DNA of 58,895 bases from Patescibacteria group bacterium (GTDB lineage: Bacteria > Patescibacteriota > Gracilibacteria > UBA1369 > PNNO01): NCBI GenBank assembly GCA_042568575.1, contig JBHPIO010000008.1, positions 1 through 58,895 of the forward strand. The letters run 5' to 3'. This document shows positions 35,132-37,429 of this stretch, in pieces. How positions within the stretch are numbered: position 1 is the first letter of the stretch; each line of letters opens with the position of its first letter. The translations under genes were made by a program, and so were the position numbers. The notes below the pieces were generated by a model. The model worked only from the letters and a program-made list of their open reading frames with translations. It was not told the origin of the DNA and did no database searches.

Positions 35132-36478
35132 ATGAAACGAAATCTTACCGAAGGATCGATTGTTAAAGCACTACTTGCTCTGGCACTTCCGATCATACTC
35201 GCAAACATTTTCCACACTGTTTATCAGTTAACTGATACTTTTTGGGTTGGAAGACTTGGCGCAGAGGCAGTGGCTGCAGTTAGCTTGAGTTTCCCTATTA
35301 TTTTTTTATTGATTTCACTTGGGGCGGGTTTAGCTATTGCTGGATCTATCCTTGTTGCTCAATACAAAGGAAAAGTCAATCAAGGAAAGATTGATTATGT
35401 TACTGCACAAACTCTCGCCTTGATGACTTTTATCTCATTGATTCTAGCTGTTTTTGGTTATGCAATTTCTTCACTCTTTATTGAGTCTATGAATCAAGAA
35501 CCAATGGTTGCTAGAGACGCAATTTTGTACATGAGGATTTCTTTTATTGGTGTGCCGTTTATGTTTCTATTTTTTGTATTCCAGGCAGTTATGAGGGGAA
35601 TTGGAGATGTCAAAATCCCGCTTTATATAGTTATCACTACCGTTTTATTGAATTTCATTTTGGATCCTCTATTCATATTAGGATGGGGGCCAATTCCTGC
35701 ATATGGAGTTTTGGGTGCTGCCGTATCAACGGTGAGCACTGAAGCGCTATCAGCAATCATCGGGATAACACTTCTTCTCCGTGGGAATAGAGGAATTCAT
35801 TTACGATTAAAAAACTTGAAACCAGATTTTTCTCTTATAAAAAAGATGTTCAAACTTGGGTTCCCTGCTTCTATTGAACAAAGCACAAGATCATTTAGTA
35901 TGGTTGTTATGACATTCCTTGTAGCAACTTTTGGGACTTCTATTGTCGCCTCTTACGGACTGGCAACACGAATCTGGAGTTTCATCATAATTCCCGCTAT
36001 TGGGCTTGCAATGGCCACATCTACATTGGTGGGGCAGAACATGGGCGCGGGAAAAATTGAACGAGCAAATCAAACAATGAAACAAAGTGTGAAAATTGGA
36101 TTTTTCGCATTAACAATAGTTGGAATTTTATTCTTCATTTTTGCTGAACCAATTTCAGCTGCTTTTGTTCCAGGAGAGGAAGCAGTTATCGCCGAAAGCA
36201 CGTTATTTTTAAGAATACTGTCGTTAACATTTGGATTTGTGGGCATGCAAATGGGAATAATTGGAACTTTGAGAGGATCGGGCAATACGAAAACCGCAAT
36301 GAATCTTTCGATTTTCGTCCTGGTTGTAATGCTTTCTATCGCATACATACTTTCAAAACACACATCGCTTGAACATCTTGGGATATGGATTGCTTATCCA
36401 ATATCCAATGTTGCTGGTGCACTTGCAGGACTCTATTTTATTGTGAGAGGCAAGTGGAAAGAAAAGGAAATTACATAA
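35132..36478 (+). CDS. MATE-family efflux transporter
   Basis: LTEGSI..LALP, DTFWVGRLG, RGIGD, NFILDPLFI, VGQNMGAG; about 12 TM. Confidence 0.95.
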   Translation: MKRNLTEGSIVKALLALALPIILANIFHTVYQLTDTFWVGRLGAEAVAAVSLSFPIIFLLISLGAGLAIAGSILVAQYKGKVNQGKIDYVTAQTLALMTFISLILAVFGYAISSLFIESMNQEPMVARDAILYMRISFIGVPFMFLFFVFQAVMRGIGDVKIPLYIVITTVLLNFILDPLFILGWGPIPAYGVLGAAVSTVSTEALSAIIGITLLLRGNRGIHLRLKNLKPDFSLIKKMFKLGFPASIEQSTRSFSMVVMTFLVATFGTSIVASYGLATRIWSFIIIPAIGLAMATSTLVGQNMGAGKIERANQTMKQSVKIGFFALTIVGILFFIFAEPISAAFVPGEEAVIAESTLFLRILSLTFGFVGMQMGIIGTLRGSGNTKTAMNLSIFVLVVMLSIAYILSKHTSLEHLGIWIAYPISNVAGALAGLYFIVRGKWKEKEIT

Positions 36479-36488
36479 CAGTTTTTAC

Positions 36489-36517
36489 TTGACTTTTTTA
36501 AGCTTCGATGTCATAAT
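36489..36517 (+). promoter_or_regulatory. Sigma70-type promoter with extended -10 driving the structured cassette
   Basis: TTGACT-17-CATAAT with TG at 36509-36510. Confidence 0.7.
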
Positions 36518-36539
36518 TCTATCCTTTTTATAAGGATTA

Positions 36540-36552
36540 TGTTCTTTGATAA
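36540..36552 (+). promoter_or_regulatory. boxA-like antitermination element
   Basis: TGTTCTTTGATAA resembles the rrn boxA (TGCTCTTTAACA / GTTCTTTGAAAA) and lies just after the predicted start site. Confidence 0.45.
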
Positions 36553-36718
36553 ATATGATTCATTTCTAATAACCATCAGCTTGGCTTTGCCAATGCTAGA
36601 GGTTTGAAATAGCAATCATATAATAATATCCTGCCAGCTAAGGCATTCCTGTTAGTCACCTGTTTATGAAAGTCTCATAGTCGGATTACTAACAGGAAAC
36701 CAACAAAGGAGGCAACTC

Positions 36719-36916
36719 ATGTTCTGGCTCATAGTAACTGGCCTCGCAGTGGCAGCCATCGCTGCCAACGTACTTCTCATCGTCCGGATGATCAAGTACC
36801 GCGAAGTGAAAATGACGTGGCTCAAGTACGTGTACGTGGCGTCGTTCTCGTACGCAATCAGCATCGTGCTGCAAAGAGGGGCAGCGTTCTGGAACTACAT
36901 AACGTCCCTTTTCTAG
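36719..36916 (+). CDS. 65-aa hydrophobic (1-2 TM) peptide with perfect SD and atypical codon usage
   Basis: AAGGAGG at 36706-36712, 6 nt before ATG; 49 of 65 sense codons end in G/C. Confidence 0.75.
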   Translation: MFWLIVTGLAVAAIAANVLLIVRMIKYREVKMTWLKYVYVASFSYAISIVLQRGAAFWNYITSLF

Positions 36917-36997
36917 GGGCAGGATATTAACCCGTCGAGGCAACTCGACACTACCGGCGGCGGCGAGGATTCACATTCTCGTCGTCGCCAAAGATTT

Positions 36998-37429
36998 TTA
37001 TTCAGAATAACAGTCTTCAGTCATATCAGCAGGGAAGTTGTATGGCTCTATTTCGACGCATGTGTATGCACCATGGCCATCAACCACAATCACCCATTTT
37101 CCTTCCACTTTTGCTACTAAAAATATTCCACCATCACCAATCGCTTCACCTAACACAACTGCGCCACGCATGTGATTTTCACTTTCATGAGTTGGTGAAA
37201 CAGTTATTGATTCAACATCTTTATCGTATTTTTCTGCAAATGCAGCTTGGACTTCTAAAACACTTATGGATATTAGATCAGTTTCAACTTCAGGAGTATC
37301 AACAACCTGTTCTTGAACAGCTTCAACTGGTTCTGCATAGCTTTCGCCAGTTTCTTCCATACATCCGGTCATAGCAAAAAGCGAAACTAAAATAATAACA
37401 CCTGAAAGGAGTGACAATTTAGCTTTCAT
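36998..37429 (-). CDS. Lipoprotein of unknown function
   Basis: Signal peptide with lipobox-like AMTGC; C-terminal Cys pair. Confidence 0.75.
   Translation of the reverse strand: MKAKLSLLSGVIILVSLFAMTGCMEETGESYAEPVEAVQEQVVDTPEVETDLISISVLEVQAAFAEKYDKDVESITVSPTHESENHMRGAVVLGEAIGDGGIFLVAKVEGKWVIVVDGHGAYTCVEIEPYNFPADMTEDCYSE

What the first reader, a model, noticed from the sequence alone, without database searches (positions are those of the whole stretch)
36489..36990. Self-contained structured RNA cassette whose small ORF sits exactly inside a long-range helix
Seen, in order: extended -10 promoter; small hairpin (ATCCTT/AAGGAT); boxA-like site; interrupted hairpin 36553-36621 (ATATGATT/AATCATAT, ATTTC/GAAAT, AACC/GGTT, AGC/GCT, TTGGC/GCCAA); TAATATCCTGCC (36624-36635) pairing perfectly with GGCAGGATATTA (36918-36929), which begins 2 nt after the TAG; an 11-bp stem (36646-36656/36688-36698) just 5' of the SD; then GTCGAG-GCAA-CTCGAC and a 15-bp GC-rich hairpin ending in GCCA. 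G-U pairs show that folding is on the + strand. Nearly all non-coding nucleotides are paired, while the SD and ORF are looped out. I recognise no known family (not tmRNA, RNase P, SRP, 6S or a riboswitch). Inference: an RNA chassis carrying a peptide cargo. Candidate roles are a stabilised or exported mRNA of an epibiont, a type I toxin mRNA with a 5'-3' long-distance interaction (as in hok or aapA1), or a domesticated RNA-replicon fragment.
Basis: partly seen in the sequence, partly recalled or inferred. Interest (0 to 1): 0.9.

Follow-up and report, generated by a model that had tools for sequence, protein, structure and literature searches.

The report
Orphan small-gene cassette with closed mRNA
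A 519-base, promoter-to-terminator insertion in a tiny bacterial genome carries a foreign-looking gene for an orphan 65-residue membrane protein, and its messenger RNA is laid out somewhat like a ribosomal-RNA precursor, with a helix that closes around the coding part.

Summary
The + strand folds far better than shuffles (z -8 to -9), and the excess lies in the UTRs, not the ORF (z -1.45). The "paired UTRs, looped-out SD/ORF" claim is overstated: 73% against 69% paired, and the SD core is predicted paired.

The whole 519 nt (36479-36997) is missing from the same-genus genome, where the two flanking convergent genes lie 4 nt apart. The 65-aa ORF has foreign codon usage (GC3 0.76 against 0.22-0.31). 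It matches about 20 other GC-rich accessory genes of this 38%-GC, 1.2-Mb bacterium. No homologue of the protein, leader or DNA was found anywhere searched.

The 12-bp closing helix is rare: about 0.1-0.2% of genes have one hugging the stop codon. One unrelated GC-rich gene of the same genome has a 14-bp one, but this did not recur in a second family genome (0 of 31).

The leader copies the host's own 16S leader order: hairpin, boxA-like site, then leader strand.

Type I toxin criteria are mostly unmet. Best reading: a moron-like acquired membrane-protein gene with a pre-rRNA-like closed mRNA. Expression and function are untested.

The parts
36479..36997 (+). Whole cassette: a 519-nt stretch present here and replaced by 4 nt (AATT) in the same-genus genome G001
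   Evidence: In G001 the MatE stop and the stop of the convergent 148-aa gene are 4 nt apart on one contig. Flanks align on both sides.
36489..36517 (+). Sigma-70-type promoter with extended -10: TTGACT, 17 nt, TG-n-CATAAT. Predicted start near 36524.
   Evidence: 10 of 12, TG present. The region as a whole has no excess of promoter-like sites (4 found, 3.6 +/- 2.0 expected). The -35 context CTTGACTT is shared with the host's 16S promoter.
36521..36537 (+). Small A/U-looped hairpin (ATCCTT / AAGGAT), in the boxB-like position
   Evidence: The host 16S leader has a hairpin in the same position, 3 nt before its boxA.
36540..36551 (+). BoxA-like site TGTTCTTTGATA
   Evidence: It fits GTTCTTTRAYA, of which the genome holds 11 copies on both strands. 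Three of them lie in leaders: 16S, the C4 operon and this one. It is 9 of 12 identical to the host 16S boxA CGTTCTTTAACA. NusB is encoded.
36539..36607 (+). Possible 22-codon upstream ORF with AAGGA 3 nt before its ATG. It overlaps the boxA-like site and hairpin 1.
   Evidence: Not tested further, and it may be chance.
36553..36621 (+). Leader hairpin 1, interrupted, 28 pairs
   Evidence: z -3.7, 0 of 200 shuffles.
36624..36635 (+). 5' (leader) strand of the closing helix, TAATATCCTGCC
   Evidence: It stays mostly unpaired if the 3' arm is absent.
36646..36698 (+). Leader hairpin 2: an 11-bp stem with an inner stem-loop holding two G-U pairs
   Evidence: z -5.1, 0 of 200 shuffles.
36706..36712 (+). 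Shine-Dalgarno AAGGAGG, 6 nt before the ATG. Its GAG core is predicted paired, either with GCCUC 36741-45 or with CUC 36716-18 across a GCAA loop.
36719..36916 (+). ORF of 65 aa: a strong N-terminal TM helix (res 2-22), a basic loop, and a weaker second hydrophobic segment (res 37-51)
   Evidence: GC1/2/3 is 0.46/0.36/0.76. Codon log-likelihood is +0.46 per codon, the value of the GC-rich gene class, reached by 0 of 3000 native 65-codon windows. The antisense ORFs score 0.11 and -0.04.
36918..36929 (+). 3' (trailer) strand of the closing helix, GGCAGGATATTA
36934..36949 (+). 6-bp hairpin with GCAA (GNRA) loop. It holds a 10-nt direct repeat (GAGGCAACTC) of the SD-to-ATG spacer 36709-18.
36956..36999 (+). 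Terminator-like 15-pair hairpin and distal T run, which overlaps the stop of the convergent gene
   Evidence: 3'UTR z -6.2. Three G-U pairs make it specific to the + strand.

Best explanation
This is a small accessory-gene cassette, self-contained from promoter to terminator. It sits between two convergent chromosomal genes in this species but not in its congener. It encodes a real but orphan 65-aa membrane protein whose codon usage is foreign to the genome and matches about 20 other GC-rich accessory genes there. In form it is a 'moron' in a chromosome.

Its mRNA, predicted to run from about 36524 to 36995, has strongly structured UTRs arranged like the host's own pre-16S rRNA. After the promoter come a small hairpin, a boxA-like site, a leader hairpin, and then a leader strand. 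That strand pairs with a trailer strand starting one base after the stop codon, so the RBS and ORF sit inside a closed loop. A GNRA hairpin and a terminator follow.

Inferred mechanism. The closing helix and flanking hairpins protect and close the message, covering an otherwise single-stranded A/U-rich stretch and blocking 3' exonucleases. Each terminating ribosome would have to open the helix. The boxA-like site may recruit NusB/NusE and keep the leader at the polymerase until the trailer emerges, as is proposed for rRNA.

My odds. Real acquired coding cassette: 0.8. Closing helix functional: about 0.45. BoxA-like site functional: about 0.3. The protein's function is unknown. My guess is a small envelope or exclusion-type membrane protein.
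For: Indel. MatE and the lipoprotein-like gene are 4 nt apart in G001 (88% and 70% protein identity) and 519 nt apart here.

Coding and foreign. GC3 is 0.76, against 0.31 and 0.22 in the neighbours. Codon LLR is +0.46. The GC-rich class scores 0.448 +/- 0.097 and native genes -0.46 +/- 0.11. None of 3000 native windows reaches it. AAGGAGG lies 6 nt before the ATG.

Orphan. The protein found only itself in 5.8e9 clustered proteins. HMMER over 1.84e9 representatives gave itself plus three long repeat proteins at 23-26% identity. No match at E<=0.001 in 60 relatives. Nothing in metagenome, viral or genome contigs, phages or plasmids.

Structure.

Closing helix is rare. A perfect complement of >=12 nt between the 300 nt upstream and the first 18 nt after the stop occurs in 1 of 1070 crude gene calls in this genome and 3 of 1304 in G006. 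The one case in this genome is another orphan GC-rich gene, C1:11953-13770. It has 14 bp, a 5' arm directly after a large leader hairpin, and UTR z scores of -5.2 and -5.1. Both hits fall among about 39 GC-rich calls (Fisher p 0.0013, post hoc).

rRNA-like order. The host 16S leader reads promoter, hairpin, 3 nt, CGTTCTTTAACA, then at once a leader strand that pairs with the trailer 93-118 nt after 16S. NusB and RNase III are encoded side by side. No Rho RNA-binding domain was found in this 82%-complete assembly.

BoxA-like sites (<=1 mismatch) are commoner upstream of GC-rich genes: 3 of 16 against 3 of 124 here, and 3 of 9 against 0 of 196 in G006.

Literature. The boxB-boxA-boxC order, the leader-trailer helix and the tethering model are from PMC10250234 (abstract and passages). 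BoxA regulation of non-rRNA genes is from PMC5725501 (abstract and passages).
Against: There is one sequence and no homologue, so covariation cannot be tested. There are no expression data.

The 12-bp helix alone could be chance. The genome has 45 perfect inverted repeats of >=12 bp with 100-500 nt spacing, about 0.02 per 500 nt. With a looser window (300 nt up, 150 nt down), 9 of 992 native genes reach 12 nt.

The class-wide idea failed its replication. None of 31 GC-rich genes in G006 has >=11 nt, while 9 native genes do. Pooled p is only 0.008.

The helix is shorter than the more than 17 bp needed for the E. coli 16S leader-trailer helix (PMC10250234).

The boxA count is confounded. The motif overlaps the -35 hexamer: two of the six GC-class hits contain TTGACA, and no exact match exists in G006. 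The boxA-like site also overlaps a possible upstream ORF.

The T run of the terminator starts 5 nt after the stem.

Whether the indel is a gain here or a loss in G001 is not resolved. Other genera have different genes after MatE.

The 5'UTR z score is within the range of native intergenic regions.
Confidence: 0.5

Rival explanations
1. An ordinary orphan gene picked up by horizontal transfer, with a normal promoter and terminator. On this reading the 12-bp long-range pair and the boxA-like site are chance, and the leader hairpins have no special role.
For: Background rates are not negligible. The 5'UTR z score of -3.6 lies inside the native intergenic range, minimum -5.0. There was no replication among the 31 GC-rich genes of G006. 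GTTCTTTRAYA occurs 11 times in the genome, mostly inside genes. About 105 GC-rich islands and about 20 GC-rich genes show that such acquisitions are common here.
Against: A stop-hugging perfect helix of >=12 bp occurs in only 1 of 1070 and 3 of 1304 genes. The only other case in this genome is another GC-rich orphan with the same hairpin-then-arm layout. The hairpin, 2-3 nt, boxA order copies the host 16S leader. The 3'UTR is the most structured downstream region among those tested.
Confidence: 0.3
2. A type I toxin-antitoxin-like locus. On this reading the small hydrophobic protein is toxic, its mRNA is kept untranslatable by folding (SD sequestration plus 5'-3' pairing), and an unrecognised antisense RNA or a processing step controls it.
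For: The protein is small and hydrophobic, with an N-terminal TM helix and a basic stretch. It is an orphan at an intergenic, patchily present locus. The leader is long and structured. The SD core is predicted paired with p >= 0.98 summed over partners. There is a 5'-3' long-distance pair and a terminator stem-loop, which are the descriptors used to find such mRNAs (PMC8594479, passages).
Against: 65 aa and about 470 nt exceed the ranges of 20-60 aa and 150-400 nt (PMC8594479). No credible antisense promoter lies inside the unit, and the best minus-strand candidates score 3+5 of 12 and point out of it. The long-distance arms contain no anti-SD. SD and AUG accessibility are the same with the 3' arm removed, with the 5' arm removed, or in the nascent RNA. 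There are no hits to PADLOC or any toxin family.
Confidence: 0.12
3. The 12-bp inverted repeat is a DNA-level feature: terminal inverted repeats of a miniature mobile element, or the two halves of a palindromic site split by an insertion. On this reading it is not an RNA helix.
For: The arms are perfect and Watson-Crick only, so they are equally good as DNA. The locus is an indel.
Against: The arms (36624, 36929) do not coincide with the indel boundaries (36479, 36997) or with the G+C step near 36700. No target duplication abuts them. The only flanking direct repeat (10 of 11 nt, 36475-85 and 37007-17) lies partly in native coding sequence, 9 nt from the boundary. There is no second copy of the arms in this genome, and gapped-pattern scans of the metagenome and genome contigs gave 0. 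No transposase or integrase is nearby.
Confidence: 0.05
4. The unit is mainly a regulatory or dual-function structured RNA, and the ORF is incidental or secondary. A more remote version is a DNA copy of an RNA-replicon fragment.
For: Its size and the density of hairpins recall dual-function RNAs such as RNAIII (recalled, no call). The 3' stem ends in GCCA.
Against: The ORF has a clean coding signature in one frame only and a strong SD. The ORF region is not more structured than shuffles. There is no Rfam match. A covariance model of the leader found nothing in 100 relatives. Nothing links it to any RNA virus.
Confidence: 0.03

Closest known systems
Pre-rRNA leader/trailer architecture with boxB-boxA antitermination signals (rrnTAC). 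PMC10250234: abstract and passages read.
   Same: The order after the promoter is the same: hairpin, boxA-like site, leader helix, then a leader strand that pairs with a trailer strand just beyond the cargo. The host's own 16S operon shows this order. NusB and RNase III are present.
   Different: The cargo is a 198-nt protein-coding ORF, not rRNA. The helix is 12 bp (plus 3 after a 2-nt loop), against about 24 bp in the host 16S and more than 17 bp required in E. coli. A 69-nt hairpin lies between the boxA-like site and the leader strand. Nus binding and RNase III cleavage are untested.
Phage 'morons'. Definition as quoted in PMC2920897, passages read; the original source, Hendrix et al., is recalled.
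   Same: It is inserted between two genes that are adjacent in a relative. It has its own promoter and terminator. Its G+C differs from the surroundings.
   Different: The neighbours are ordinary chromosomal genes (MatE, EamA, tRNA-editing protein, aminoacyl-tRNA synthetase, alanine racemase), not phage genes. It was not found in any other genome or phage.
Type I toxin mRNAs with 5'-3' long-distance interaction: hok/sok and aapA1/IsoA1. PMC8594479 passages read; PMC5416894, PMC6733600 and PMC9841398 seen only in the search listing; details of hok are recalled.
   Same: A small hydrophobic protein, a long structured leader, a partly sequestered SD, a 5'-3' pair and a terminator stem-loop.
   Different: The arms are internal, about 100 nt from the 5' end and about 65 nt from the 3' end, and hold no anti-SD. 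Removing them does not free the SD. No antisense RNA gene is evident. The protein and mRNA are longer than the stated ranges.
BoxA-regulated non-rRNA genes: suhB and a ParE-like toxin gene. PMC5725501, abstract and passages read.
   Same: A boxA-like element in the 5'UTR of a protein-coding gene.
   Different: In those cases boxA lies close to the start codon and represses translation. Here it is 179 nt upstream. The organism's boxA consensus is inferred from one rRNA leader only. That paper's Supplementary Table 2, which gives the consensus, could not be seen.
Bacterial mRNAs whose 3'UTR pairs with the 5'UTR, such as icaR of Staphylococcus aureus (recalled from memory; no call)
   Same: Intramolecular 5'-3' UTR pairing in an mRNA.
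   Different: In icaR the 3'UTR pairs with the SD region and promotes RNase III decay. Here the pair lies 72 nt upstream of the SD and hugs the stop codon.

Membership tests
Type I toxin-antitoxin system | Toxin of 20-60 aa encoded on an mRNA of 150-400 nt (PMC8594479) | tested here: not met
   65 aa, and about 472 nt from the predicted start to the terminator. The miss is marginal.
Type I toxin-antitoxin system | Cis- or nearby-encoded antisense RNA antitoxin of 60-200 nt | tested here: inconclusive
   No minus-strand promoter inside the unit at standard stringency. Only weak ones at relaxed stringency, and they point outwards. There are no RNA data.
Type I toxin-antitoxin system | SD sequestered by an anti-SD, locally or through the 5'-3' long-distance interaction | tested here: inconclusive
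   The SD core is predicted paired locally: p 0.53 with GCCUC 36741-45 and 0.27 with CUC 36716-18. The long-distance arms contain no anti-SD, and removing them changes nothing.
Type I toxin-antitoxin system | Toxicity of the protein when expressed | not testable with these tools
   Needs an expression assay.
Phage moron | Extra DNA between two genes that are adjacent in relatives | tested here: met
   519 nt against 4 nt.
Phage moron | Own promoter and/or terminator | tested here: met
   Consensus scans only. Not shown to be active.
Phage moron | G+C different from the surroundings | tested here: met
   ORF 52.5% and 3'UTR 58%, against 38% for the genome. GC3 0.76 against 0.22-0.31.
Phage moron | Lies in a phage or prophage genome and is found in more than one phage | tested here: not met
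   The neighbours are cellular genes. There is no copy anywhere else searched.
rrn-type antitermination / leader-trailer unit | BoxA matching the organism's rRNA boxA, placed after a boxB-like hairpin just downstream of the promoter | tested here: met
   TGTTCTTTGATA against CGTTCTTTAACA, 9 of 12. Both fit YGTTCTTTRAYA, and both lie 2-3 nt after a hairpin. Function is untested.
rrn-type antitermination / leader-trailer unit | Long leader-trailer helix enclosing the product (more than 17 bp needed in E. coli, PMC10250234) | tested here: not met
   The helix encloses the ORF but has 12 bp, or 15 with a 2-nt interruption. The host 16S helix is about 24 bp.
rrn-type antitermination / leader-trailer unit | NusB (and NusE) available | tested here: met
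   NusB at C3:29299-29688, 110 bits. NusE was not searched for.
Any Rfam family (riboswitch, tmRNA, RNase P, SRP, 6S, leaders) | Score at or above the family's gathering threshold | tested here: not met
SieB superinfection-exclusion protein (PF14163) | Pfam score at or above the gathering cut-off | tested here: not met
   19.6 bits against a cut-off of 26. The match is to the N-terminal membrane part only.
Class II holin | Two TM helices and a highly charged hydrophilic C-terminus (definition recalled) | tested here: not met
   The only charge after residue 36 is R53, and the C-terminus is ...NYITSLF. The best PHROG hit has E 0.024 and unknown function.

The most novel reading that the evidence does not exclude
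Ultra-small bacteria of this family carry a pool of mobile, GC-rich, promoter-to-terminator gene cassettes. Some of their messages are packaged like ribosomal-RNA precursors, with a boxA-type leader and a leader-trailer helix closed around the coding region. The foreign gene would thereby borrow the host's rRNA antitermination and folding machinery (NusB/E, perhaps RNase III) to be transcribed, closed and stabilised. This cassette would be the smallest example, and C1:11953-13770 a second one.
Probability: 0.15. Interest if true: 0.75.

Novelty: new variant of a known kind. Interest (0 to 1): 0.45.

Why it matters
If the closing helix and the boxA-like leader are functional, this is a bacterial mRNA built on the plan of a pre-rRNA. 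That would extend Nus/boxA biology and leader-trailer closure from stable RNAs to a protein-coding message. It would also suggest how newly acquired genes get expressed in a reduced genome in which no Rho was found.

The cassette is also a clean, minimal case of gene gain: 519 nt, with both ends defined to the base against a congener. It belongs to a lineage where about 20 GC-rich accessory genes, many with lipoprotein-type signal sequences, sit in a 38%-GC genome. That makes it useful for asking where such genes come from and how they insert without any visible recombinase signature.

If the helix and the motif are chance, it is an ordinary orphan gene with a good terminator.

Tried and rejected
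Homologue hunts that found nothing:
- Own-genome DNA search: self only.
- blastn-short of the 5' and 3' parts against the genome. The best hit, 20 of 21 nt in C25, lies inside a Gly-rich coding stretch and is chance.
- DNA and protein searches in 60 relatives. The 38-nt match in G017 lies inside a 335-aa ORF.
- Phage and plasmid blastn.
- The 5.8e9-protein word search in 'near' lengths only. The 'longer' and 'shorter' options were not run, but the HMMER search of all lengths stands in for them.
- The search for related loci in the metagenome, viral and genome contigs.
- Gapped closing-helix pattern in the metagenome and genome contigs, and a 32-mer in the viral contigs: 0 each.
- Covariance model R1 of 36550-36716: only the window itself among 101 genomes.
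- Protein families. PHROGs best E 0.024, PADLOC none, NCBIfam E 0.05. The Atlas gave scores <=0.86 to unnamed two-helix proteins, which is a lead only.

Expression. The look-up of sequencing runs listed no run, so no RNA holder is listed.

Tests that were uninformative:
- RNAduplex z scores of upstream against downstream sequence. Long loose duplexes swamp the signal. Native genes gave 6 of 86 at z <= -3 and the GC class 1 of 39.
- The looser 300 x 150-nt complement test showed no enrichment: 1 of 23 GC-rich against 19 of 992 native at >=11 nt. The cassette ORF and the C26:48038 gene were not in that crude gene set.
- The search for the flanks of the C12:5980 cassette in G001 ended at a contig end.

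Ideas dropped:
- The G017 match as a conserved leader element: it is coding.
- A flanking 11-nt direct repeat as a target duplication: it does not abut the boundary.
- The three long HMMER hits as relatives: they are repeat proteins with no fitting Pfam family.
- Archaeal origin: the SSU scores 1516 bits as bacterial against 1062 as archaeal.

Gene sets are crude: the longest non-overlapping ORFs of >=60 aa, not a gene finder. They include some spurious ORFs, for example over the 16S gene and antisense to the cassette. The Fisher tests are post hoc on these sets.

Supplements were closed. T1TAdb Table S1 (descriptor details) and Supplementary Table 2 of PMC5725501 (BoxA consensus) could bear on the membership rows and were not seen. 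Structure prediction, complex prediction and fold search were not used, because an orphan without an alignment would give a poor model.
Full report
WHAT IS THERE

The window is contig C30 of a 1.20-Mb, 31-contig assembly. It is 82% complete with 0.2% contamination and has 38.3% G+C. The SSU gene scores 1516 bits as bacterial and 1062 as archaeal, so this is a small-genome bacterium.

- Promoter TTGACT, 17 nt, TG-n-CATAAT at 36489-36517.
- A small hairpin at 36521-37.
- TGTTCTTTGATA at 36540-51.
- An interrupted hairpin at 36553-36621.
- A perfect 12-bp pair between 36624-35 and 36918-29. The 3' arm starts one base after the TAG.
- An 11-bp-stem hairpin at 36646-98.
- AAGGAGG at 36706-12.
- A 65-codon ORF at 36719-36916.
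- A 6-bp GCAA-loop hairpin at 36934-49.
- A 15-pair terminator-like hairpin at 36956-89 with a T run.

IS IT MORE THAN CHANCE

The + strand RNA 36524-36995 folds at -175.9 kcal/mol. Shuffles average -125.8 +/- 6.2, giving z -8.0 with 0 of 100 as good. Because the 5' part is A+T-rich and the 3' part G+C-rich, I also shuffled each segment on its own. That gave z -8.9, 0 of 150.

The excess lies in the UTRs. The 5'UTR has z -4.1 (-5.8 without the SD stretch) and the 3'UTR z -6.2. The ORF has z -1.45, with 19 of 200 shuffles as good.

The minus strand is 18 kcal/mol worse. Five G-U pairs in the UTR helices would be A-C mismatches on it (read).

The closing pairs have probabilities of 0.87-1.00.

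UTR and ORF bases are paired to the same extent in the MFE, 73% and 69%. The SD core is predicted paired, not looped out.

Against this genome's own intergenic regions the 5' side is in the tail but not unique: z -3.6, native minimum -5.0, n=60. The 3' side is the most extreme seen: -8.0, native minimum -6.0, n=60.

No Rfam family reaches threshold, and there is no tRNA or tmRNA.

THE DECISIVE CONTEXT: AN INDEL WITH FOREIGN CODONS

The unit lies between a MatE transporter gene (35132-36478, +) and a convergent 143-aa lipoprotein-like gene (36998-37429, -). The same-genus genome G001 has both genes on one contig, at 88% and 70% protein identity. There the two stop codons are separated by 4 nt. 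So all 519 nt, promoter and terminator included, are present here and absent there.

In three other genera the gene after MatE is different, so the polarity of the indel is not formally settled.

The ORF has G+C of 0.46/0.36/0.76 at codon positions 1/2/3. GC3 in the neighbours is 0.31 and 0.22. A codon-usage log-likelihood puts it at +0.46 per codon. That is the value of the genome's GC-rich genes (0.448 +/- 0.097, n=19) and far from native genes (-0.46 +/- 0.11, n=939). None of 3000 native 65-codon windows reaches it, and the two antisense ORFs score 0.11 and -0.04.

This codon signature, together with the strong SD, makes the + strand ORF a real coding sequence of foreign type.

The product has one strong TM helix (residues 2-22), a basic loop and a weaker hydrophobic segment.

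The cassette is not alone. The genome holds 105 islands of >=200 nt with >=50% G+C and about 20 GC-rich genes. These have A+T-rich upstream regions with strong promoter-like sites and G+C-rich 3' ends. Many begin with lipoprotein-type signal sequences, and 10 of them have no Pfam family above threshold.

One such gene is shared and syntenic with G001. Another has a 51%-identical, equally GC-rich homologue in G006 at a non-syntenic place. G006 has 31 GC-rich gene calls of its own. So this is a family-wide, patchy accessory pool.

The neighbourhood of the cassette is ordinary chromosome, not prophage.

ORPHAN STATUS

Neither the protein, nor the leader as sequence or as structure, nor the DNA was found anywhere else. 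See, and for families 9 and 47-50. Details are under Tried and rejected.

HOW SPECIAL IS THE CLOSING HELIX

Taken loosely it is not rare. The genome has 45 perfect inverted repeats of >=12 bp with 100-500 nt spacing. Nine of 992 native genes have a 12-nt complement between 300 nt upstream and 150 nt downstream.

Only 1 of 1070 crude gene calls in this genome reaches 12 nt, and 3 of 1304 in G006.

The single other case here is striking. C1:11953-13770 is a 605-aa, GC-rich gene that is an orphan in 100 relatives. It has a 14-bp perfect pair. The 5' arm follows directly after a large leader hairpin, 120 nt before the ATG, and the 3' arm starts at the first base after the stop. Both its UTRs are strongly structured, z -5.2 and -5.1.

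Two hits, both among about 39 GC-rich calls, give p 0.0013 (post hoc). But the prediction that this is a class feature failed in G006. None of its 31 GC-rich genes has even 11 nt, while nine native genes do. Pooled p is 0.008.

I therefore put the odds that the helix is functional at about even.

THE rRNA-LIKE LAYOUT

The host's 16S operon reads as follows: CTTGACTT-type promoter, a hairpin (GGTTC...GAACC), 3 nt, CGTTCTTTAACA, and then immediately a leader strand. That strand pairs over about 24 bp with the trailer 93-118 nt past the 16S 3' end.

The cassette reads: CTTGACTT-type promoter, hairpin, 2 nt, TGTTCTTTGATA, hairpin 1, then 2 nt later the leader strand that pairs with the trailer. 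Hairpin 1's closed base brings its two ends together, so the leader strand sits next to the boxA-like site.

GTTCTTTRAYA occurs 11 times in the genome. Three copies lie in leaders: 16S, a GC-rich two-gene operon on C4, and this cassette.

NusB and RNase III are encoded next to each other. No Rho RNA-binding domain was found, though the assembly is incomplete.

In E. coli, boxB, boxA and boxC follow the promoter in that order. BoxA suffices to form the antitermination complex. The leader-trailer helix is essential for 30S formation. BoxA tethered to NusB is proposed to hold the leader at the polymerase until the trailer emerges (PMC10250234, abstract and passages). BoxA elements also regulate protein-coding genes (PMC5725501, abstract and passages).

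BoxA-like sites with <=1 mismatch are commoner upstream of GC-rich genes than of native genes with free upstream regions. The counts are 3 of 16 against 3 of 124 here (one of the three native hits is the 16S leader itself), and 3 of 9 against 0 of 196 in G006.

The caveat is serious. The motif overlaps a -35 hexamer, two of the six hits contain TTGACA, and G006 has no exact match. In the cassette the site is downstream of the promoter and has no -10 at the right distance (read), so there it is not a promoter.

WHY NOT A TYPE I TOXIN

The resemblance is real: a small hydrophobic product, a structured leader, a partly sequestered SD, a 5'-3' pair and a terminator. But the arms carry no anti-SD. 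I folded the full RNA, a form cut before the 3' arm, a nascent form and two 5'-shortened forms. The SD core stayed paired in all of them, with unpaired probability 0.01-0.25, and mean SD accessibility was 0.42-0.60. So the helix is not an SD lock of the hok or aapA1 kind.

No antisense promoter is evident. Sizes are above the stated ranges (PMC8594479). I leave this reading at about 0.12.

MECHANISM PROPOSED (inferred, not shown)

Transcription starts near 36524. The leader folds. If the boxA-like site binds NusB/E, the leader stays near the polymerase. When 36918-29 is made, it closes on 36624-35. Without that partner, the A/U-rich 5' arm is 85-98% unpaired, which would leave it open to endonuclease attack.

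The GNRA hairpin and terminator cap the 3' end. Because the trailer arm lies within a ribosome footprint of the stop codon, every terminating ribosome must open the helix, and it can re-form afterwards. The 10-nt repeat GAGGCAACTC, at the SD spacer and in the 3' hairpin, is unexplained.

VERDICT

The unit is best described as a moron-like, recently acquired orphan membrane-protein gene whose message has a pre-rRNA-like closed layout. It is a new variant of known kinds rather than a new class. Its more novel reading rests on one paralogous example and one failed replication.

Noticed in passing
G000 contig C1:11953-13770 (minus strand) with flanks, = L044: A second ORF-enclosing helix. This 605-aa GC-rich orphan gene has TGTGGATGTCTAAA 120 nt before its ATG, right after a large leader hairpin. 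The exact 14-nt complement starts at the first base after its stop. Its UTRs fold with z -5.2 and -5.1. In the isolated leader the 5' arm can instead pair with an upstream TTTAGTC, which may be a switch.
   Followed up: partly
G000 genome-wide, e.g. C1:129901-131493, C1:152487-153648, C2:29115-29675, C2:36570-39020, C3:35853-37634, C4:19078-21470, C12:5980-6534, C12:17378-19462, C26:83100-85643, C31:20932-29211: About 20 genes with 53-62% G+C (GC3 0.66-0.85) sit in a 38%-GC genome. Each has an A+T-rich promoter region and a G+C-rich 3' end. Many have lipoprotein-type signal peptides and most have no Pfam family. Three large ones carry Cys-rich CGNG..GE.CD repeats and a hydrophobic-basic C-terminal tail. 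G006 has 31 such gene calls. One gene is syntenic with G001, and another is non-syntenic with its 51%-identical G006 homologue.
   Followed up: partly
window 36539-36607 (+): A 22-codon upstream ORF with AAGGA 3 nt before its ATG. It overlaps the boxA-like site and the 5' half of leader hairpin 1. Its translation would open that hairpin.
   Followed up: no
window 36709-36718 and 36937-36946: A perfect 10-nt direct repeat, GAGGCAACTC. It occurs once as the SD-to-ATG spacer and once as the core of the 3' hairpin. Each copy can form a GAG/CUC stem with a GCAA (GNRA) loop. Roughly 0.1 such repeats would be expected by chance in 500 nt (my arithmetic).
   Followed up: no
G000 C1:203531-203790 and C1:201770-202066 (16S flanks, = L015): The 16S leader shows promoter, hairpin, boxA CGTTCTTTAACA, and a leader strand pairing with the trailer 93-118 nt after 16S. 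The trailer is followed by a hairpin with a T run and a new TTGAC promoter-like site. The 16S gene may therefore be transcribed apart from 23S.
   Followed up: partly
G000 C3:28826-29221 and C3:29299-29688 (minus strand): The RNase III gene and the nusB gene are immediate neighbours on the same strand.
   Followed up: no
G000 C1:51800-55900 and C12:65700-70600: Two regions of 4-5 kb hold clusters of perfect 12-20-bp inverted repeats spaced 150-480 nt apart, eight and nine of the genome's 45. They may be repeated or invertible segments.
   Followed up: no
G006 C1:1349537-1351156, 1186343-1186609, 1128783-1130153; also 1183379-1183957 and 1201064-1201642: Native (A+T-rich) genes of G006 with 12-14-nt perfect complements between the leader and the first bases after the stop. 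Two identical 192-aa genes 17.7 kb apart mark a repeated region around 1.18-1.20 Mb.
   Followed up: no
window 36479-36489: There is no terminator between the MatE stop and the cassette promoter. In G001 the two convergent genes have no room for terminators at all. MatE read-through into the cassette, and antisense read-through from the 143-aa gene, are both possible.
   Followed up: no
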